The notes below the pieces were generated by a model, which searched no databases, was not told the origin of the DNA, and saw only the letters and a list, made by a program, of their open reading frames with translations. Positions 40,258 through 60,810 of a stretch of DNA of 64,000 nt are shown here, piece by piece. The DNA is taken from the NCBI GenBank assembly GCA_965242545.1, contig OZ251456.1, forward strand, positions 316,076 through 380,075, in the 5' to 3' direction. The position numbers and the translations under genes were made by a program. The DNA is from a bacterium. Its GTDB lineage: Bacteria > UBA8248. Each line of letters starts with the position of its first letter. Positions within the stretch are counted from its first letter, which is position 1.

Positions 40258-41268
40258 ATGAGAAAGTTGTTTGGGCTTCTGAGTCTGCTCCTCGTTTTAA
40301 GCCTCACGCCGGTCGATTCCTTCGTCCGCGACGCGCGGGCGGCCAAGTTCCGCATCGGGATGCACCGCCAGACGTTCGGAGCCTTCACCGCGGTCGCCAT
40401 GGGGATGGGTTATTTCGACGAGGAATTCGGAAAGGGCAACTGGTCGGTGAAGGTTTTCCCGCAGGGCAAACTCGTCATCGAGGCGCTGCTCTCCCGCAGC
40501 CTCGACGTGGGACACGGCGCCACGCGGCCTTTCGTGGACGGCGTGGCCAAAAAGGCGGGCCTGACGATGATTTCCGTCAGTTCCTCCTGGTGCAAATCCA
40601 TCTCCATCTGGGTGCCGCTGGACTCCCCCGTCAAGACGGTGGCCGACCTCAGGGGAAAGACCATCGCCGAGAAAAAAGGCACGTCCACGCACTTCGTCCT
40701 GGACAACGGCATTCTGCCCGCGTTCGGCATGAAGCCGGGCGACATCAAGATCATGAACACCACGACGGCGGAGCGCCTCTCCGCCTACAGGGCGAAGGTG
40801 GTTTCCGCCATGGTGATCGGCGCGCCCACGTCGTTCCGCCTCACGGACAAGAAATGGGGGCGGCCCATCGTTGATTACTGCAAATACGACAATCCGCCGG
40901 CCATGATCTTCATCGAGCTCGCCAATCCCAGAACGCTGAAAAGCAACCCGGAAGGCGTGGTGAAATATCTGCGCGCCTATCTGAAATCCGCGCAGCTTTG
41001 GAAAAAGGACCCCGACAAGTTCGCCAGGGTCTATCACAAATGGCTCATCTCGAAGGGGCGCAAGGTGGATTATTCCATCGCCAGGCGCGCCATCAACGTG
41101 GTGCGGCCGCTGTACAAAATCACCCCCCGCATCATCAACGCGCTCAACGCGACGGCCAAGGTGCAAAAGGGCCGGGGCAAGATTCGCCGCTTGCCTGATT
41201 TCGCGGGCGGTGAAGGCATCAATGACGGCCCGATCAAAAAGGCGCTGGCCAGCATGAACATGAACTGA
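40258..41268 (+). CDS. ABC-type substrate-binding protein (NMT1/SsuA/TauA-like) with signal peptide
   Basis: Signal peptide MRKLFGLLSLLLVLSL, periplasmic-binding-protein type 2 layout. No cognate permease or ATPase adjacent. Confidence 0.6.
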   Translation: MRKLFGLLSLLLVLSLTPVDSFVRDARAAKFRIGMHRQTFGAFTAVAMGMGYFDEEFGKGNWSVKVFPQGKLVIEALLSRSLDVGHGATRPFVDGVAKKAGLTMISVSSSWCKSISIWVPLDSPVKTVADLRGKTIAEKKGTSTHFVLDNGILPAFGMKPGDIKIMNTTTAERLSAYRAKVVSAMVIGAPTSFRLTDKKWGRPIVDYCKYDNPPAMIFIELANPRTLKSNPEGVVKYLRAYLKSAQLWKKDPDKFARVYHKWLISKGRKVDYSIARRAINVVRPLYKITPRIINALNATAKVQKGRGKIRRLPDFAGGEGINDGPIKKALASMNMN

Positions 41269-41342
41269 GGCTTTTTGGGCCCGGCATTCGAGGCTGCGGA
41301 GGCGTTTTTCTGAGCTTCCGCAGCCTTTGCCGCGTTTCGGGC

Positions 41343-42452
41343 GTGAGAGCGGATGGAATGTGCCGGATGGCCGGTTTGAAAATAGCGAAGATAGAAGCGA
41401 AGTCCATCAGGACGCCCTTGTCCCGCCCCATAGGGAGCGCGAGCGGGGCGAAATCGGAACTGGATTATCTGCTGGTTTTTCTCCACACCGAGAACGGCCC
41501 GACCGGTTGCGGCTTCGTGATGAGTCTGGGCGAAGCGGCCTCGACCGCCCTCGTTCCCTACGTTGAAAAGGAACTGGCGCCTCTGGCGAAGGGGCGGGAC
41601 GCGCTCGCGCCCGAGGCGCTTTGGCGGCGTCTTTGGGGGCCGAACAAGGCGAGAATGCGCGGCGGGCTGGGCGTTCAGGCGCTCTCCGCGGTGGACACCG
41701 CCTGTTGGGACGCGCTCGCGAAGGCGGCGGACATGCCGCTTTCCCGCGTCCTGGGCGGGTTCGGAAGCGAGGTTCCCGTCTATGGCAGCGGAGGGTGGCT
41801 CACGTTCACGGACGCCGAGATGGTGGAGGAATGCCGGGGCTTCGCGGAGAAGGGAATCGGCGCCTACAAACTGAAACTGGGGACGGAGCGGGACGAGGAG
41901 CGAATCCGCGTTTTGAGAAGGGAGATGGGAGAGGAAATCGTTTTGTTCGCGGACGCGAACCAGAAATACAACGCGCGCGAAGCCCTGGAGGCGGCCGCGA
42001 TGCTCGCCGAATACGACGTGAAATGGTTCGAGGAGCCGGTGTTGGCGGATTCCGTGGACGACCTCGCAGAGGTGGCGCGAAGGAGTCCGACGCCCGTCGC
42101 GGCGGGGGAAAACGCTTATATGCGCTGGGGTTTTCGGGAGATTTGCGAAAGAAGGGCGGCTTCGTTTCTGCAGCCCGACGTGGGCCGCTGCGGCGGCGTG
42201 ACGGAATTTCGCAAGGCGGCTCATCTGGCGGAAGCCTGGAGCCTTCCGCTGTGCAGCCATTTGCTCCAGGAGGTTTCGGTCGGCCTCATCGCCTCGACGC
42301 CGAGCGGCTACATGGTGGAGTATATGGAACTTCTTCCCCCGGATGTCCTGACGCGGGATTTTCCCGTCGCGAACGGCCGCATGAAGGTTCCCGACGCGCC
42401 CGGCCACGGTGTGGAATTCACCGAGCGCGCCATCCGAAAATACGCGGTTTGA
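41343..42452 (+). CDS. Enolase-superfamily enzyme (mandelate racemase/muconate lactonising enzyme family)
   Basis: KLKLG...FADANQ...WFEEP...GENA metal-ligand and barrel pattern. The start may be 41367 (MAGLKIAKIE). Confidence 0.8.
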   Translation: MRADGMCRMAGLKIAKIEAKSIRTPLSRPIGSASGAKSELDYLLVFLHTENGPTGCGFVMSLGEAASTALVPYVEKELAPLAKGRDALAPEALWRRLWGPNKARMRGGLGVQALSAVDTACWDALAKAADMPLSRVLGGFGSEVPVYGSGGWLTFTDAEMVEECRGFAEKGIGAYKLKLGTERDEERIRVLRREMGEEIVLFADANQKYNAREALEAAAMLAEYDVKWFEEPVLADSVDDLAEVARRSPTPVAAGENAYMRWGFREICERRAASFLQPDVGRCGGVTEFRKAAHLAEAWSLPLCSHLLQEVSVGLIASTPSGYMVEYMELLPPDVLTRDFPVANGRMKVPDAPGHGVEFTERAIRKYAV

Positions 42453-42464
42453 GGAGGATCGGAT

Positions 42465-43349
42465 TTGGCTGAAAAAGTCGCGTTTCTGGGCCTGGGAAAC
42501 ATGGGCGGCGCCCTTGCGGCCAATCTGGTGAAGGCCGGCTTCGAGGTGTCGGGCTTCGATCCGAGCCCGCCCGCCCGGGAGGCGACGGAAAAAGCGGGCG
42601 TCCCCGTTTTCGATTCTCCCGCCGAGGCGGCCAAGGGCGCGGATTACGTTTGCAGCGCGGTGCCCACGGGCGCGCAGGCGCGCGACGCCTATCTGGGCGA
42701 AAAGGGCGCGCTCCTCGCCGCCGGGGAGGGCGCCGTCTGCTTCGACTTTTCGACCATCCTGCCCGAGGAGAGCATCTCCATCGCGGAGGAAGCCGAGTCC
42801 CGCGGTTTTCACTTTCTGGATACCCCCGTCAGCGGGAACGCGCTCATCGCGCGCGACGCGAAAATCGGCCTCATGGTGGGCGGGAAAAAGGAGGTTCTGG
42901 ACGCGCACCGGGCGGTGCTGGAGAGCGTGTGCGAACTGCTCGATTATTTCGGCCCCAATGGTTCGGGCTTGAGAATGAAGTTGATCGCGAATCAGTTGGT
43001 GTCGTGCCAGCTGTGCGCTCTGGCGGAGGGATTCACCCTTGGGGTGAAGTCGGGCCTCGACCCGGATCAAATGATGGAATATCTCTACTCGAGCACGGTG
43101 TTTCGCGTGATGAGCGCGCGCGGCTGGGGCTTGAGAAAAAAGGAGTATGAACCCGTGAAGTTCGCCCTCGCCCTCATGCGCAAGGACCTGGGCCTCATCA
43201 GGGAGTTCGCCCGGTCGAACGGCGTCCCCCTGCCGCTGACCGACGCGGTTCAAAAGGCGTATCAGGGAGCGATGGACATGGGGCTCGGCGATTTGGACCA
43301 GGGCGTCATACGCGAATGGTTCGAGCGCGAAGCAGGGCTCGGCGGCTAG
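42465..43349 (+). CDS. NAD(P)-dependent oxidoreductase (3-hydroxyisobutyrate dehydrogenase/6-phosphogluconate dehydrogenase-like)
   Basis: VAFLGLGNMGGALAANL Rossmann motif and the HIBADH-family layout. Confidence 0.8.
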   Translation: MAEKVAFLGLGNMGGALAANLVKAGFEVSGFDPSPPAREATEKAGVPVFDSPAEAAKGADYVCSAVPTGAQARDAYLGEKGALLAAGEGAVCFDFSTILPEESISIAEEAESRGFHFLDTPVSGNALIARDAKIGLMVGGKKEVLDAHRAVLESVCELLDYFGPNGSGLRMKLIANQLVSCQLCALAEGFTLGVKSGLDPDQMMEYLYSSTVFRVMSARGWGLRKKEYEPVKFALALMRKDLGLIREFARSNGVPLPLTDAVQKAYQGAMDMGLGDLDQGVIREWFEREAGLGG

Positions 43350-45776: not shown

Positions 45777-46475
45777 TTATCCGGAAAGCTGGAGCTGGCG
45801 CGGCGCTTGATCGTTGGTAGAACAATACGGAACAATCCATCCCCGGGATGTGAGTCTATTTATTTCGATCTTCGTTATATCAATGGTACAGGATGCGGAT
45901 TTTGGTTCTTCTTTCCCCAAAAGATACGCCTTAAATGTGAATGTGAGCTTGTCAGTTTTACTGAGCACATCCAAGGCTTCTTTCTTAAATAAATGATTAC
46001 AGCCTGGTTGTTTGAAACACGGTTTCGGGTAAAAATAGATCTCCCTACTCAATGAATTGCCAGCTTTGATTGGCCTTGGTGCCGCTGCCGCAATGAACTT
46101 ATTGTTAAGATTACCGTCCTCCGCTGGGTCGGAAAATTGCCATTCTGAGTGCCAAACCTGAATATATTCCTTTCCATCAAGTGTGAACGACACATACTCA
46201 TGGTGCACCACCGCATTGTAGTCTCGGGTACCCGTATTAACGTATGCCATGCGCGCACCGATTCGCAAAAAACGGCGATCATCGTTATTCGGATCATTCC
46301 GGTCCTTCTCGAACTTTAGCAAAACTTGCTCTGGCGGAAAAAAAGAGATTGAGGCTCCTTTTATGTAAAATATAACGTTAATGATGGCATTGACGAAGGA
46401 GATTAGTAACGCCAGACCAGCTATGAAATTGGTTATGGTCATCCCCCGTGCCATTTGAGTTTTAGAATCGTTCAT
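45777..46475 (-). CDS. Hypothetical membrane-anchored protein (232 aa) in low-GC islet
   Basis: N-terminal TM (ITNFIAGLALLISFVNAIINVIFYI), then a soluble domain with 4 Cys. Local GC is about 42%. Confidence 0.45.
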   Translation of the reverse strand: MNDSKTQMARGMTITNFIAGLALLISFVNAIINVIFYIKGASISFFPPEQVLLKFEKDRNDPNNDDRRFLRIGARMAYVNTGTRDYNAVVHHEYVSFTLDGKEYIQVWHSEWQFSDPAEDGNLNNKFIAAAAPRPIKAGNSLSREIYFYPKPCFKQPGCNHLFKKEALDVLSKTDKLTFTFKAYLLGKEEPKSASCTIDITKIEINRLTSRGWIVPYCSTNDQAPRQLQLSG

Positions 46476-46494
46476 GATGAAGCTTTACGGAGTA

Positions 46495-46731
46495 CTACGC
46501 CATGTTTCGAGGAGGCGGTGGCGGAGGTGGTGGCGATGGCGGTGGCGGATCCGGTGCCGGCATAAATGTCGAAGAAAGAGCGAAAGAGGGGAAGGATAGT
46601 TGTTCAATCGTAGGAAGCAAGAAGCTGATGGACACGATGGAAGCCAAAAGGAGCATTTTCATGTCGAAGAATCCTCCCGTCAACCAATCAGCGGCAAATT
46701 TTAATATATGATTTTTGATCTTCTTTGTCAA
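46495..46731 (-). CDS. Small hypothetical membrane protein with Pro-rich tail (78 aa)
   Basis: Central hydrophobic helix, C-terminal PAPDPPPPSPPPPPPPP encoded by a GGN/CCN repeat. An antisense Gly-rich ORF (46502..46711 +) exists, so the coding strand is uncertain. Confidence 0.3.
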   Translation of the reverse strand: MTKKIKNHILKFAADWLTGGFFDMKMLLLASIVSISFLLPTIEQLSFPSFALSSTFMPAPDPPPPSPPPPPPPPRNMA

Positions 46732-46747: not shown

Positions 46748-47377
46748 TCACTCCCCCGCCTCGGGGAACTCCTCCGGCCAGTCGGCCAGCAGCGCCTCCA
46801 GATACGCCTTGAGGTCGTCCGGCCTTTTCCGGCGAATCCTGTTCCGATCGATTTCCTCCTGCGCTTCGATGGGAATCCCCAGCGCGTCGTTGAATTTGTT
46901 TCTCATGTTGAAATAGGTGACGACCATGGTGAGCTCCACGATTTCCGCGTCGCTGAAATGCTTCCTGACCCCGGCGAAAACGTCGTCCCTCTCCCCGGCC
47001 GTGCCCAGCGTCACGTGCTCCGCCCAGAGGAGGACGGCGCGCTCTTTCTCCGTGAAGGAGGCGTAGTCGCCCTCGCCGATGGCCGCGATCCGCTCTTCCG
47101 TAATGCCCACCGATTGACCAACCGGCGCGTTGTGCGCCAGTCAGTAGGCGCAGTCGTTGAGCTGGCTGGTCTTGATGATGGCCAGCTCCTTGGTCTTCGT
47201 GCTCAGCGCCGAGCCCAGCCCCTGGCGCAGGAGCGACGAGGTGAGCGGCAGCATGAATTTCGCGATGAAGGGCTGGTTCGCCATCACCCGCCAGGCGTTG
47301 GGGACGCGGTTCAGGAGAACGCTCGCGTGGTCGAACAGATGGTTCACGACGGGGTCATCGGATCCGGATTCGAGCAT
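46748..47377 (-). CDS. Carboxymuconolactone decarboxylase (AhpD-like) family protein with in-frame TGA at the CxxC position, a candidate selenoprotein
   Basis: ORFs 47141..47731 and 46748..47110 are in the same frame, separated only by TGA 47141-47143. The read-through protein is ...KTSQLNDCAY-U-LAHNAPVGQS-VGITEERIAAIGEGDYASF..., i.e. the AhpD/CMD redox motif with the second Cys replaced by the TGA codon. The likely start is ATG 47375-47377 (MLESGSDD). A GC hairpin (CUGGCGC-ACAAC-GCGCCGG) follows the TGA directly. Confidence 0.6.
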
Positions 47378-47537
47378 GGGGACGCGGGACACGGGGTCTG
47401 CTCCTCTCTTTTGACGGATAATGGAGAAAACGACGCATTGTCCGATGAAACGCGAATTTTTTGAACCGTGATATGCTTCGCCCCGCGAGCAGCGCGGCGT
47501 TGGACGGACGCGCCCGCCGCCTGGTTCCCGCGCTTTC

Positions 47538-48659
47538 TTGAAGGCGACGCCCATGATCCCGGACGAGACGACAAGGCCCATCGGCCTGGCGGTGGTGGGA
47601 TGCGGCAGGATCGGGCGCATCCGGGCGGAATTCGCGCGCCGCAACCCGGCGGTCGAATGGATCGGGCTGTGCGACGTGAACGAGAATACGGGCCGGACGC
47701 TGGCGAAAGACCTGCGCGCCGATTTTTTCACGACGGACTACCGGGAGCTCCTGAAGCGGGACGAGGTGAACGGCGTCGTCCTGGCCACGTACGCGAACGA
47801 GCGGCTCGAACCCGTCATGGCGAGCGTGGAGCGCGGCCACCGGATGCTCATCGAAAAGCCCCTGGCGGTGGACGCGCGGACCTCCGCCCGGCTGGTGAAG
47901 GCCATCGACGACGCGGGGGCGGACGCCGTCCTGGGATATACGCAAAGGTTCCGCCGCCGCTTTCTGGCGGCGAAGGAGAAGGTTCGCTCCGGCGCGCTGG
48001 GCGACGTCTCCTCCGTCACGGCCCGCGCCTTTTTGAACCGCATGAATCCGGCGGCGAACTCCGCCAGGAGCGAATCCCCCGCGACATTCACCCCGATGGT
48101 CATCTCCGGCACCCACAGCGTGGACTTGTGCTCCTGGCTGCTGGAGGGGCGGCGTCCGGTCGAGGTGTACGCGCGCTCGGTGGACAAGGCGATGGCGCCC
48201 TGCCTCACCAAGGATTCAACGTTCGCCATCGTCACCTATGAGGACGGGACGATATGGAGCATGAACGTGAGCTGGGCGCTGCCGCGCGTCTGGCCGTCTG
48301 AGGTCTATTCGCTCGAGTTGGGGATCGTGGGAACGGGAGGCGCGCTCACCATAGACGATACCCACCGCGACGTGGTGTTCGCCACCGAGGCGCCGCGCGA
48401 ATCCGCGCGCCTGAAGGAAGGGCGGAACGTGAGTTTTCTGACGAGCTATCCGCCGGGAGACGTGGCGTTCGAGCAGCTCTGGGGCCCCATGCGCGAGGAG
48501 ACGCGCTCATGGTTCGACAGGATTTATCTGGGCGTTTCCACGCCGCACGCGACGGCGAAGGAGGCGCATGAGAACCTGATGCTGTGCCTGGCGATGGATC
48601 ACTCGGCGAAAACGGGCCGGGCGGCGCCGCTTCCGGCGTCCCCGGAGGATTTTGAATAG
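47538..48659 (+). CDS. Gfo/Idh/MocA family oxidoreductase (paralog 1)
   Basis: GLAVVGCGRIGRIR Rossmann motif, IEKPLA, GYTQRFRRRF. Confidence 0.8.
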   Translation: MKATPMIPDETTRPIGLAVVGCGRIGRIRAEFARRNPAVEWIGLCDVNENTGRTLAKDLRADFFTTDYRELLKRDEVNGVVLATYANERLEPVMASVERGHRMLIEKPLAVDARTSARLVKAIDDAGADAVLGYTQRFRRRFLAAKEKVRSGALGDVSSVTARAFLNRMNPAANSARSESPATFTPMVISGTHSVDLCSWLLEGRRPVEVYARSVDKAMAPCLTKDSTFAIVTYEDGTIWSMNVSWALPRVWPSEVYSLELGIVGTGGALTIDDTHRDVVFATEAPRESARLKEGRNVSFLTSYPPGDVAFEQLWGPMREETRSWFDRIYLGVSTPHATAKEAHENLMLCLAMDHSAKTGRAAPLPASPEDFE

Positions 48660-59712: not shown

Positions 59713-60810
59713 ATGGCAACGGCATCGGAGAGAAAGGAGCGCCTCACCCGGATGGTCAGGGCGGGGGGCTGAGGCTCGAAACTGGGTCCGGAGGACCTGA
59801 GAGAGGCGTTGAGCGGGTTCGAGCCGTTTTCCGATCCGAATCTTCTTTACGGGACGAACGCCGGAGACGACACGGGCGTTTATCGGCTCAGAGAGGATTT
59901 GGCCATCGTTCAGACGGTGGACTTCTTCACGCCCATCGTGGACGACGCCTACGCCTACGGCCAGATAGCCGCGGCCAACGCGCTGAGCGATTGCTTCACC
60001 ATGGGCGCGCAGCCGGTCACGGGGCTGAACCTGGCGTGTTTCCCCTGCCGTCTTGGACTGGATGCGCTGGGGAGAATTCTGGCCGGCGGCGCGGACAAGA
60101 TGCGCGAGGCGGGCGGCGTCATCGTGGGCGGCCACAGCGTGGATGACGCGGAGCCCAAATACGGCATCGCCGTCACCGGAACGGTCGACCCCAGGGAGAT
60201 GGTGACGAACCGGGGAGCGAGACCCGGCGACAAACTCGTTTTGACGAAAAAAATCGGCACCGGCGTCGTCACCAACGTGACGAAGCAGCTGAACCCGATG
60301 CTGAGGGCCGCGCGCGGCATCTTCGGGAAAAACGGAAAACTCCGAGACGGCGTGTTCGAGGAGGCGGTCGCCTCGATGAAGGCGCTCAACAAGCGGGCGA
60401 GCGAGTGCATGATGCGCGTGGGCGTGAACGCCTGCACGGATGTGACGGGCTTCGGCCTTCTTGGGCATTTGCGCAACGTGATGGAAGCCAGCGGCGCGCG
60501 GGCGCGCGTCGTTTTCTCCGACGTTCCTCAGTTCGAGGGACTTCTTCCGCACGCCATCGCCGGCACGGCGGGCGGAGGAGAGCGCAACCGCGCGTGGACC
60601 AAGTCGTTCGTCGAGCCGAAGCCGGGCGTGGACGAGGAAATGCTCGCTTTGCTCAACGACGCGCAAACCTCCGGGGGGCTCATCATTGCGGTCGAAACGG
60701 AAAAGGCGGAATATCTTTTGAGAGAACTGCTTGGAGCGGGCGTCGCCGCCGGGGCCGTGTTCGGCGAGGTGGTGGAGGGCCCGCCCGGCAGCGTGGAGAT
60801 AGAGCCGTAA
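59713..60810 (+). CDS. selD: Selenide, water dikinase (selenophosphate synthetase), selenocysteine-containing form with in-frame TGA
   Basis: The track ORF starts at a TTG at 59809, but reading upstream in frame gives MATASERKERLTRMVRAGG-TGA-GSKLGPEDLREALSGFEPFSDPNLLYG..., which matches the SelD N-terminal active-site loop (LTQ..HGAG[C/U]G.K). The TGA is at 59770-59772, a GGGAG RBS precedes ATG 59713, and a hairpin (GGGUCC-GGA-GGACCU) starts about 12 nt after the TGA. The rest of the protein is full-length SelD (DFFTPIVDD, VTDVTGFGLLGH). Confidence 0.8.

What the first reader, a model, noticed from the sequence alone, without database searches (positions are those of the whole stretch)
46748..47377. 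AhpD/carboxymuconolactone-decarboxylase family gene with UGA at the CxxC redox cysteine position: candidate selenoprotein split by the ORF caller
Two track ORFs (47141..47731 and 46748..47110, minus strand) are in the same frame, separated only by TGA 47141-47143. Read through, they give a single ~209-aa CMD/AhpD-fold protein with active-site context ...SQLNDCAY-U-LAHNAP..., where the family has the second redox Cys. Cys-to-Sec replacement at a CxxC redox centre is the usual selenoprotein pattern. selD in the same window also carries a Sec-type TGA, which argues the organism decodes UGA as Sec. A GC hairpin (CUGGCGC-ACAAC-GCGCCGG, 47122-47140) lies directly 3' of the UGA and may be part of a SECIS. 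Standard annotation would call this a pseudogene or two fragments.
Basis: partly seen in the sequence, partly recalled or inferred. Interest (0 to 1): 0.7.

Follow-up and report, generated by a model that had tools for sequence, protein, structure and literature searches.

The report
AhpD-like selenoprotein gene, split by annotation
This is one intact gene for a small redox enzyme of the AhpD family that most likely uses selenocysteine, encoded by an in-frame UGA, in its active site; this selenoprotein family has been known from marine metagenomes since 2005, so the case is real but ordinary.

Summary
On the minus strand, 47392..46748 is one 214-codon reading frame interrupted only by TGA 47143..47141. 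The product has a CMD/AhpD-core domain with the motif C81-A-Y-U84.

Among 80 related genomic loci, 69 carry TGA at exactly this column and 11 carry TGC (Cys). No locus has any other stop. The taxa include Nitrospinota, Tectomicrobia, Rhodospirillales, Betaproteobacteria and Acidimicrobiales. Both halves of the gene are under purifying selection (dN/dS about 0.1-0.2).

The overlapping hairpin at 47127..47108 is conserved with compensatory changes, has a GGUC loop 21 nt after the UGA, and meets all four published bacterial SECIS criteria. It is absent from the Cys forms.

A Sec-containing selD lies in the same window (Sec codon at 59770).

The gene belongs to the "AhpD-like" CxxU selenoprotein family, described from the Sargasso Sea in 2005 and the fourth most abundant selenoprotein family in the GOS ocean survey. 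Public records do annotate its orthologues as 120-122 aa fragments.

Verdict: correct call, known kind, low novelty.

The parts
46748..47392 (-). Complete coding sequence of the AhpD-like selenoprotein: 214 codons plus the terminal TGA at 46750..46748, GTG start at 47392
   Evidence: Translation. Pfam CMD PF02627 scores 46.2 bits (cut-off 23) and TIGR00778 AhpD core 29.2 bits (cut-off 27.8). Orthologues align over residues 1-213 with a single in-frame stop. dN/dS is 0.08-0.20 on both sides of the UGA.
47401..47408 (-). Shine-Dalgarno sequence GAGAGGAG, 8 nt upstream of the GTG start
   Evidence: Read from the sequence. An equivalent AAGGAG/GGAGG lies before the same start position (12 GTG, 1 TTG) in 13 orthologous loci.
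47141..47143 (-). In-frame UGA, codon 84: predicted selenocysteine, second position of the C81-x-x-U84 redox motif
   Evidence: TGA in 70 of 81 sequences (window plus 80 loci) and TGC in the other 11 at this column. It aligns with the second Cys of CxYC in full-length Cys homologues and with Cys51 of PA0269, PDB 2O4D.
47108..47127 (-). Predicted bacterial SECIS hairpin: 8-bp stem (47127..47120 with 47115..47108) and GGUC apical loop (47119..47116), 21 nt after the UGA
   Evidence: The local fold is -11.4 kcal/mol. On 70 TGA sequences, 81% of cells are paired, with compensatory changes at two pairs (CG/GU in 14 sequences, UA/CG in 13), and 0 of 500 shuffles reach the observed score. The GGUC loop is present in 64 of 70 TGA forms and 1 of 11 TGC forms. 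It meets the four bSECIS criteria quoted in PMC13188914.
47122..47140 (-). It competes with the SECIS hairpin because they share 47127..47122. It is not conserved and is not the SECIS.
   Evidence: It is part of the minimum-free-energy fold of this sequence. Across homologues only 47.5% of cells are paired, equal to the shuffle mean, with no covariation. [quoted passage not shown]
59713..60810 (+). selD (selenophosphate synthetase), itself with an in-frame Sec UGA at 59770..59772 and a candidate SECIS hairpin at 59782..59801 (loop GGA, 17 nt after the UGA)
   Evidence: Translation ...MVRAGG-U-GSKLGPEDL.... TIGR00476 selD scores 336.7 bits against a cut-off of 125. The local hairpin folds at -8.3 kcal/mol.

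Best explanation
Window 47392..46748 (-) is one functional gene for a 214-residue AhpD-fold, all-helical thiol/selenol oxidoreductase whose active site is C81-A-Y-U84.

How it most likely works: translation starts at GTG 47392. [quoted passage not shown] It inserts selenocysteine, and translation continues to the ordinary TGA stop at 46750..46748.

Sec occupies the position of the second Cys of the CxxC motif (Cys51 in P. aeruginosa PA0269, Cys133 in M. tuberculosis AhpD). Glu69 lies at the position of the proton-relay Glu. The protein probably cycles between a selenol/thiol state and a C81-U84 selenenylsulfide, reducing hydroperoxides directly or re-reducing a peroxiredoxin or another disulfide or sulfenate partner.

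Shown here: the UGA/Cys correspondence, the conservation of the UGA, the covarying SECIS hairpin, purifying selection on both halves, the AhpD fold of the family, and a Sec-type selD in the window. Inferred: actual Sec insertion, the selenenylsulfide cycle, and the physiological substrate.
For: 1. There is a single in-frame TGA in an otherwise open 214-codon frame with a CMD/AhpD-core domain.
2. 69 of 80 homologous loci from at least six bacterial lineages carry TGA at the same column, the other 11 carry TGC, and no locus has another stop.
3. Full-length Cys homologues align C-x-Y-C with C-A-Y-U. PDB PA0269 (E = 1e-16) aligns CAYC with CAYU, and its Glu36 aligns with Glu69 (relay residues from PMC3141380).
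4. The hairpin with the GGUC loop is 81% paired with compensatory changes, and 0 of 500 shuffles reach its score. It is present in 64 of 70 TGA forms and 1 of 11 TGC forms. It folds at -11.4 kcal/mol and meets the published bSECIS model.
5. dN/dS is about 0.08-0.16 upstream and 0.10-0.20 downstream of the UGA, at dS about 0.3-0.75.
6. selD with its own Sec UGA is in the same window.
7. An AlphaFold model of a 48%-identical Cys homologue (pLDDT 93) matches D. radiodurans AhpD 6K40 and other 'peroxidase-related' AhpD-core structures.
8. AhpD-like CxxU is an established selenoprotein family. NCBI-labelled Nitrospinota/Nitrospinae MAGs (GTDB UBA8248) rank among the most selenoprotein-rich bacteria.
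Against: - selA, selB and tRNA-Sec are not in the 64-kb window (one search found only tRNA-Glu), and the rest of the genome could not be searched.
- No experimental evidence (75Se labelling, mass spectrometry) exists for this gene.
- The protein scores below NCBIfam's cut-offs for TIGR01926 (65.1 vs 81.8) and for the two selenoprotein-aware AhpD-related models.
- The relay His sits at i+3 (His87), not at i+4 as in PA0269 and MtAhpD. Asn88 aligns there.
- No ahpC/peroxiredoxin gene is adjacent, so the physiological partner is unknown.
- In this particular sequence, the competing upstream hairpin is thermodynamically favoured in the free RNA.
Confidence: 0.93

Rival explanations
1. Pseudogene or sequencing/assembly error: the TGA is a nonsense mutation or a miscalled TGC/TGT, and the gene is dead or actually encodes Cys.
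For: A single in-frame stop in a MAG-type sequence is the classic signature of either. Gene callers and NCBI annotation treat the orthologues as fragments.
Against: The same TGA at the same column occurs in 69 other independently assembled genomes of several phyla, with no additional stops. dN/dS is about 0.1-0.2 downstream of the TGA. An RNA hairpin is conserved and restricted to the TGA forms.
Confidence: 0.01
2. Genuine split gene: UGA terminates translation. An 83-aa N-terminal piece and a separately initiated 120-aa C-terminal piece (GTG 47110) assemble non-covalently, with no selenium involved.
For: ORF callers find a GTG start at 47110 for the second piece. Databases list 120-128 aa products.
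Against: The 10 codons between the UGA and that GTG (LAHNAPVGQS) are conserved at the protein level and contain the family's invariant H-N. In most family members the codon at the 'start' position encodes Ala (QAAG), so it is not a start codon. A split would remove the second redox residue entirely, although every uninterrupted homologue keeps Cys there. The covarying hairpin has no role in this model.
Confidence: 0.02
3. UGA is recoded, but not as Sec: it is read as Trp or Gly (alternative genetic code 4 or 25), or by near-cognate Cys/Trp read-through.
For: One database protein (P0035) shows W at this column.
Against: The W is an artefact of a gene caller using another code: the DNA has TGA. 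This gene and many others in the window end on TGA as a normal stop. Homologues have Cys, never Trp or Gly, at the column. A SECIS-type hairpin and a Sec-type selD are present.
Confidence: 0.02

Closest known systems
AhpD-like (COG2128 / TIGR01926-type) CxxU selenoproteins of marine and other bacteria (Zhang, Fomenko & Gladyshev 2005, PMC1088965; Zhang & Gladyshev 2008, PMC2398784; 2026 review PMC13188914)
   Same: It has a CMD/AhpD-core domain, Sec at the second position of CxxC (CxxU), many Cys-containing homologues, and a SECIS hairpin directly downstream of the UGA with G in the first loop positions. The family is abundant in marine bacteria, and the function is inferred to be redox.
   Different: This orthologue group scores below the TIGR01926 cut-off (65.1 vs 81.8). 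It has His at i+3 after Sec and a C-terminal extension of about 40 residues ending in DWPxEFP that the solved AhpD-like structures lack. I could not check directly that these exact sequences are among those catalogued.
P. aeruginosa PA0269 (PDB 2O4D/2IJC/7XW1), an AhpD-like protein with weak H2O2-reducing activity (PMC3141380)
   Same: It is the closest solved relative by sequence (E = 1e-16). It has the same C-A-Y-C/U tetrad, and the relay Glu lies 12 residues before the first Cys. The helical AhpD fold is shared.
   Different: PA0269 has Cys, not Sec. Its relay His is at i+4 (His55), where the window protein has Asn88 with His87 at i+3. PA0269 has 145-165 residues and lacks the N- and C-terminal extensions.
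M. tuberculosis AhpD (reductant of AhpC; Cys130-x-x-Cys133, Glu118, His137)
   Same: It shares the helix-turn-helix catalytic motif with a CxxC-type redox pair and a Glu relay (PMC3141380).
   Different: The chain topology differs and the sequence similarity is low. The mycobacterial gene sits in an operon with ahpC, whereas no peroxiredoxin gene lies next to the window gene.
NCBIfam selenoprotein-aware relatives: NF053654 'YciW-related (seleno)protein' and NF041238 'alkylhydroperoxidase-related (seleno)protein' (CFYUT)
   Same: They belong to the same superfamily, with Sec at the same CxxU position.
   Different: Scores are far below the cut-offs (73.7 vs 310 and 41.4 vs 175). These are different subfamilies.
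Bmp8 debrominase (PDB 6OHI/6OHJ), a CMD-fold, Cys-dependent reductive dehalogenase
   Same: It has the same fold (Foldseek E = 2e-6) and weak sequence similarity (E = 2e-5).
   Different: It is much more distant than the AhpD-like peroxidase-related proteins. No evidence here points to dehalogenation.

Membership tests
AhpD-like / CMD-family CxxU selenoproteins (literature family) | CMD / AhpD-core domain | tested here: met
   PF02627 scores 46.2 bits (cut-off 23) and TIGR00778 scores 29.2 bits (cut-off 27.8). The family model has an AhpD fold.
AhpD-like / CMD-family CxxU selenoproteins (literature family) | In-frame UGA aligned with the second Cys of CxxC in Cys-containing homologues | tested here: met
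   C-A-Y-U aligns with C-x-Y-C. The column holds TGA in 70 sequences and TGC in 11.
AhpD-like / CMD-family CxxU selenoproteins (literature family) | Bacterial SECIS downstream of the UGA: 3-9 nt loop, 4-16 bp stem, G in the first two loop positions, 16-37 nt spacing, MFE <= -7.5 kcal/mol (criteria from PMC13188914) | tested here: met
   The loop is GGUC (4 nt), the stem is 8 bp, the spacing is 21 nt, and the fold is -11.4 kcal/mol. The hairpin is conserved with covariation and is specific to the TGA forms.
AhpD-like / CMD-family CxxU selenoproteins (literature family) | Host has the Sec-decoding trait (selA, selB, selC, selD) | tested here: inconclusive
   selD is present and is itself Sec-encoding. 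There is no tRNA-Sec in the window, selA and selB were not found among the window genes examined, and the rest of the genome is not available. The literature reports SelA/SelB in most sponge-symbiont bins of a set that included one Nitrospinae bin, and 48-54 selenoprotein genes in NCBI-labelled Nitrospinota/Nitrospinae MAGs that GTDB places in UBA8248. The window's own lineage was not verified.
AhpD-like / CMD-family CxxU selenoproteins (literature family) | Selenium actually incorporated into the protein | not testable with these tools
   This needs 75Se labelling or mass spectrometry.
TIGR01926 'peroxidase-related enzyme' subfamily (NCBIfam) | Whole-protein score at or above the curated cut-off | tested here: not met
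   65.1 bits against a cut-off of 81.8, with U replaced by C. The protein is a relative, not a member by NCBI's threshold.
NF053654 YciW-related (seleno)protein / NF041238 AhpD_rel_CFYUT | Score at or above the curated cut-off | tested here: not met
   73.7 vs 310 and 41.4 vs 175.
Canonical AhpD (M. tuberculosis type, AhpC reductant) | Proton-relay residues: Glu 12 residues before the first Cys, and His at i+4 after the second Cys | tested here: inconclusive
   Glu69 is in place. His87 is at i+3, and Asn88 aligns with the relay His (residue roles from PMC3141380).
Canonical AhpD (M. tuberculosis type, AhpC reductant) | Genomic linkage to ahpC/peroxiredoxin | tested here: not met
   The neighbours are GFO/IDH/MocA oxidoreductases, a sulfatase, a metallo-beta-lactamase-fold protein and an unannotated low-GC ORF. 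No neighbour is conserved across the family.
Gamma-carboxymuconolactone decarboxylase proper (PcaC) | Lacks the CxxC redox motif and relay residues (PMC3141380) | tested here: not met
   The window protein has the CxxU/CxxC motif, so it sits on the AhpD-like side of the CMD superfamily, not with the decarboxylases.

The most novel reading that the evidence does not exclude
The most novel reading my evidence does not exclude is that this subfamily is not a peroxidase-system component at all. It is distinguished by His at i+3, a conserved C-terminal DWPxEFP extension, and 3-4 Sec-containing paralogues per genome in relatives labelled Nitrospinota. It could be a selenol-dependent enzyme with a different chemistry, for example a reductive dehalogenase/debrominase analogous to the CMD-fold enzyme Bmp8 (and, mechanistically, to Sec-dependent deiodinases).
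Probability: 0.06. Interest if true: 0.6.

Novelty: new member of a known kind. Interest (0 to 1): 0.2.

Why it matters
The practical value is in annotation. This gene and dozens of orthologues in public MAGs are deposited as 120-122 aa 'CMD family' or 'hypothetical' fragments. The current selenoprotein-aware NCBIfam models do not reach this subgroup, so selenoproteomes of these lineages are under-counted.

The alignment of 70 UGA-containing genes also gives a clean, covariation-supported SECIS for this family. It has a GGUC loop, 21-nt spacing and a bulged-A variant in one paralogue group, and could seed a covariance model.

Biologically the finding adds nothing unexpected. AhpD-like CxxU selenoproteins have been known since 2005 and are among the commonest selenoproteins in the ocean.

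Tried and rejected
- **Rfam.** A gathering-threshold scan of the whole window, and a permissive scan (E <= 10) of 46900..47300, found no SECIS family. The weak hits (RSV_PBS, MEG8_2) are noise.
Rejected: no conservation and no covariation, and it fails the loop-G and spacing criteria.
- **Conserved gene neighbourhood as a clue to function.** An all-against-all comparison of flanking ORFs in 81 loci gave only lineage-specific neighbours: a divergent GFO/IDH/MocA oxidoreductase in the orthologue group, and an unrelated upstream ORF in one paralogue group. No peroxiredoxin appeared.
- **More selenoprotein genes in the window.** A scan for in-frame TGA flanked by coding-like sequence on both sides found only this gene, apart from adjacent-gene artefacts. 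The filter missed selD because its upstream part is short.
- **Structure prediction.** A single-sequence prediction of P0024 was useless (pLDDT 39.6). The alignment-based model worked.
- **Tracing the window's origin.** An exact look-up of the window's 120-aa fragment found no record.
- **Bmp8 debrominase literature.** The search found nothing.

Full report
**1. What is in the sequence**

On the minus strand, the ORFs 47141..47731 and 46748..47110 share one frame. The only stop between them is TGA 47143..47141.

Translating 47392..46748 gives 214 codons: VSRVPMLESG...KTSQLNDCAY*LAHNAPVGQSVGITEER...DWPEEFPEAGE*.

The start is most likely GTG 47392, not ATG 47377. A GAGAGGAG ribosome-binding site lies 8 nt upstream of the GTG. 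All 13 orthologous loci start at the same position (12 with GTG, 1 with TTG) after an AGGAG-type ribosome-binding site.

With U replaced by C, the protein matches Pfam CMD (PF02627, 46.2 bits) and the AhpD core domain TIGR00778 (29.2 bits, cut-off 27.8). It falls below the cut-offs of TIGR01926 (65.1 vs 81.8), NF053654 'YciW-related (seleno)protein' (73.7 vs 310) and NF041238 'alkylhydroperoxidase-related (seleno)protein' (41.4 vs 175).

**2. Is the TGA an accident?**

It is not.

- In a protein database search, every close relative (81-94% identity) is a 120-122 aa C-terminal fragment. Only relatives at 50% identity or less are full length, and those carry C-x-Y-C where the window has C-A-Y-U.
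- A scan of one genome per species returned 80 loci. Of these, 69 have TGA at exactly this codon and 11 have TGC. No locus has a second in-frame stop.
- The TGA forms come from MAGs labelled Nitrospinota/Nitrospinaceae, Tectomicrobia, Rhodospirillales/Rhodospirillaceae, Beta-proteobacteria/Burkholderiales, Acidimicrobiales/Acidimicrobiia and Chthoniobacterales.
- Between the window and ten orthologues, dN/dS is 0.08-0.16 for codons 2-83 and 0.10-0.20 for codons 85-213, at dS about 0.3-0.75. The part after the UGA is therefore translated in this frame.
- One database protein shows 'W' at the column (P0035), but its DNA has TGA. A gene caller had used another genetic code.

**3. The SECIS**

In this sequence it does form, and with the UGA included it dominates the minimum-free-energy fold of the free RNA.

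On an ungapped alignment of 70 UGA-containing homologues (A2), it is not supported:
- Only 47.5% of cells are paired, which equals the shuffle mean.
- There is no covariation.
- It starts 7 nt after the UGA.

The overlapping hairpin at 47127..47108 (CGCCGGUU-GGUC-AAUCGGUG) behaves differently:
- 81% of cells are paired.
- There are compensatory changes at two pairs (CG to GU in 14 sequences, UA to CG in 13).
- 0 of 500 shuffles reach the observed pairing or covariation score, and it beats all slid registers.
- One paralogue group keeps the helix through a bulged A.
- The GGUC loop occurs in 64 of 70 TGA forms but 1 of 11 TGC forms.
- On average 6.5 of the 8 pairs form in the TGA sequences and 3.8 in the TGC sequences. 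The same amino acids (L-G-Q-A-A) are thus encoded with fixed codons only where a UGA precedes them.

This hairpin meets all four criteria of the published bacterial SECIS model (PMC13188914): loop of 3-9 nt (here 4), stem of 4-16 bp (here 8), G in the first two loop positions (GG), spacing of 16-37 nt (here 21), and MFE of -7.5 kcal/mol or lower (here -11.4).

Rfam has no matching family.

**4. Sec decoding in the organism**

selD lies at 59713..60810 (+) and scores 336.7 bits on TIGR00476 against a cut-off of 125. It has its own in-frame UGA at 59770 (...RAGG-U-GSKLGPEDL...). A hairpin with a GGA loop follows 17 nt downstream and folds at -8.3 kcal/mol.

No tRNA-Sec is in the window, and selA and selB were not among the genes I annotated. 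The rest of the genome is not available to me.

From the literature:
- SelA and SelB co-occur in most sponge-symbiont bins of a study whose 37 bins included one Nitrospinae bin, bin107 (PMC5649159).
- MAGs labelled Nitrospinota/Nitrospinae by NCBI, which GTDB places in UBA8248, hold 48-54 selenoprotein genes and rank among the ten richest bacteria (PMC13326102).
- The window's closest relatives carry the same NCBI labels, but I did not verify that they are the same lineage.

**5. What the protein is**

The closest solved relative is P. aeruginosa PA0269 (2O4D, E = 1e-16). It aligns CAYC with CAYU, and its Glu36 with Glu69.

PA0269 has weak H2O2-reducing activity and a proton relay of Glu36, Cys48, Tyr50, Cys51 and His55. 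These correspond to Glu118, Cys130, His132, Cys133 and His137 of M. tuberculosis AhpD (PMC3141380).

In the window protein these positions are Glu69, Cys81, Tyr83 and Sec84. The His, however, is at i+3 (His87), and Asn88 occupies the i+4 position.

An AlphaFold model of the 48%-identical Cys homologue P0024, built with a 40-sequence alignment, has pLDDT 93.3. Its best matches are:
- D. radiodurans AhpD (6K40; TM-score 0.84 normalised to the target)
- structural-genomics 'peroxidase-related AhpD core' proteins (2PRR, 3C1L, 2OYO, 2PFX, 2GMY)
- the debrominase Bmp8

The family has an extra C-terminal segment of about 40 residues (two helices, ending DWPxEFP) that the solved structures lack.

**6. 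Context**

The gene appears to stand alone.
- Upstream, a GFO/IDH/MocA oxidoreductase is transcribed divergently (47538..48659).
- Downstream, a strong sigma-70-like promoter match (TTGACA-17-TATATT, 46731..46703, minus strand) precedes a low-GC (43-50%) segment with an unannotated 232-aa ORF.
- No peroxiredoxin is nearby.
- No neighbour is conserved across the family.

The physiological partner or substrate is therefore not indicated.

**7. Mechanism, with its basis**

- *Shown:* one reading frame; UGA at the redox Cys column; conservation of that UGA; a UGA-linked covarying hairpin of SECIS type; selection on the downstream half; the AhpD fold; a Sec-type selD.
- *Established knowledge* (PMC13188914): SelB with Sec-tRNA(Sec) binds such a hairpin and decodes the UGA once the lower mRNA structure is unwound by the ribosome. 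That unwinding would also remove the competing upstream hairpin, which includes the UGA itself.
- *Inferred:* Sec84 acts as the attacking nucleophile and is resolved by Cys81 to a selenenylsulfide. The substrate is a hydroperoxide or an oxidised peroxiredoxin or thiol protein.

**8. Comparison with what is known, and novelty**

'AhpD-like protein (COG2128), CxxU' was one of the new selenoprotein families of the Sargasso Sea, with 27 sequences (PMC1088965). It occurs in finished genomes (PMC1794560).

As 'AhpD-like 1' it is the fourth most abundant selenoprotein family in the GOS data, with 299 Sec forms and 902 Cys homologues. 'AhpD-like 2' (pfam02627, CxxU) is listed beside it (PMC2398784).

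The 2026 review lists 'AhpD-like protein, TIGR01926, CxxU' and 'CMD-like protein, PF02627, CxxU'.

The window gene is therefore a further member of a known kind. What is slightly particular is that this orthologue group falls below the curated NCBIfam cut-offs and is annotated in public records as fragments.

**9. Verdict**

Novelty is low and interest is 0.2.

The most novel reading not excluded is a non-peroxidase chemistry such as selenol-dependent dehalogenation. It rests only on a distant fold relationship to Bmp8 and on the subfamily-specific features, and I give it about 6%.

Noticed in passing
window 59713..60810 (+), Sec codon at 59770..59772, hairpin at 59782..59801: selD is itself a selenoprotein (...RAGG-U-GSKLGPEDL...). 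It has a candidate SECIS with a GGA loop 17 nt after the UGA, so its loop sequence and spacing differ from those of the AhpD-like gene (GGUC, 21 nt).
   Followed up: partly
window about 45780..46700: A low-GC island (43-50%, against 62-69% around it) lies directly downstream of the selenoprotein gene. It holds a 232-aa ORF (45777..46475, minus strand) with no Pfam match, a small ORF with a signal-peptide-like start (MKMLLLASIVSISFLL) that runs into a proline-rich run (PPPPSPPPPPPPP), and a near-consensus sigma-70 promoter match (46731..46703, minus strand). It may be horizontally acquired.
   Followed up: partly
L085:1105-2493 (+) (Logan SRR23617268); also proteins P0002 and P0017: A tandem two-domain version of the family: a 463-codon frame whose first domain has C-A-Y-U (TGA) and whose second domain has lost both redox residues (EAAYSLAH). 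Databases hold only the part after the UGA.
   Followed up: partly
L002/L024/L025 (OZ244713.1); L012/L014/L026 (OZ244906.1); L013/L030/L031/L070 (CBDBZY01): Relatives of the window organism carry three or four paralogues of this gene per genome. All have TGA at the same codon, and they fall into three sequence types (U-LAHN, U-YAHN, U-LGHN). The U-LGHN type keeps the SECIS stem through a bulged A.
   Followed up: partly
L081:1501-2145 (protein P0035): A database protein shows Trp at the Sec column because the gene caller read TGA with an alternative genetic code. The DNA has TGA.
   Followed up: yes
window 47134..47129 (His87-Asn88 codons); alignment A1: In this family the conserved His follows the Sec/Cys at i+3 and is followed by Asn (U-x-x-H-N; invariant among the Sec forms, near-invariant in the close Cys homologues). 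PA0269, MtAhpD and the more distant homologues P0055/L079 have His at i+4. The consequence for the proton relay is unknown.
   Followed up: no
L014:3195-3932 (+) and 18 other loci: An ORF beginning MDRSIWATWYDLPPEDEQAYNEWLH... recurs about 70 nt upstream of the gene in 19 loci, on the same strand in 15. The example is in a locus of the U-LGHN paralogue type, so it may be a co-transcribed partner of that paralogue. It was not annotated.
   Followed up: no
window 41070..43349: The coding strand is ambiguous. A 727-aa minus-strand ORF (41070..43253) has no Pfam match. The plus strand has two ORFs (41343..42452 and 42465..43349), and the second begins with a Rossmann-like GGSDLAEKVAFLGLG motif. 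The plus-strand pair is probably the real one.
   Followed up: no
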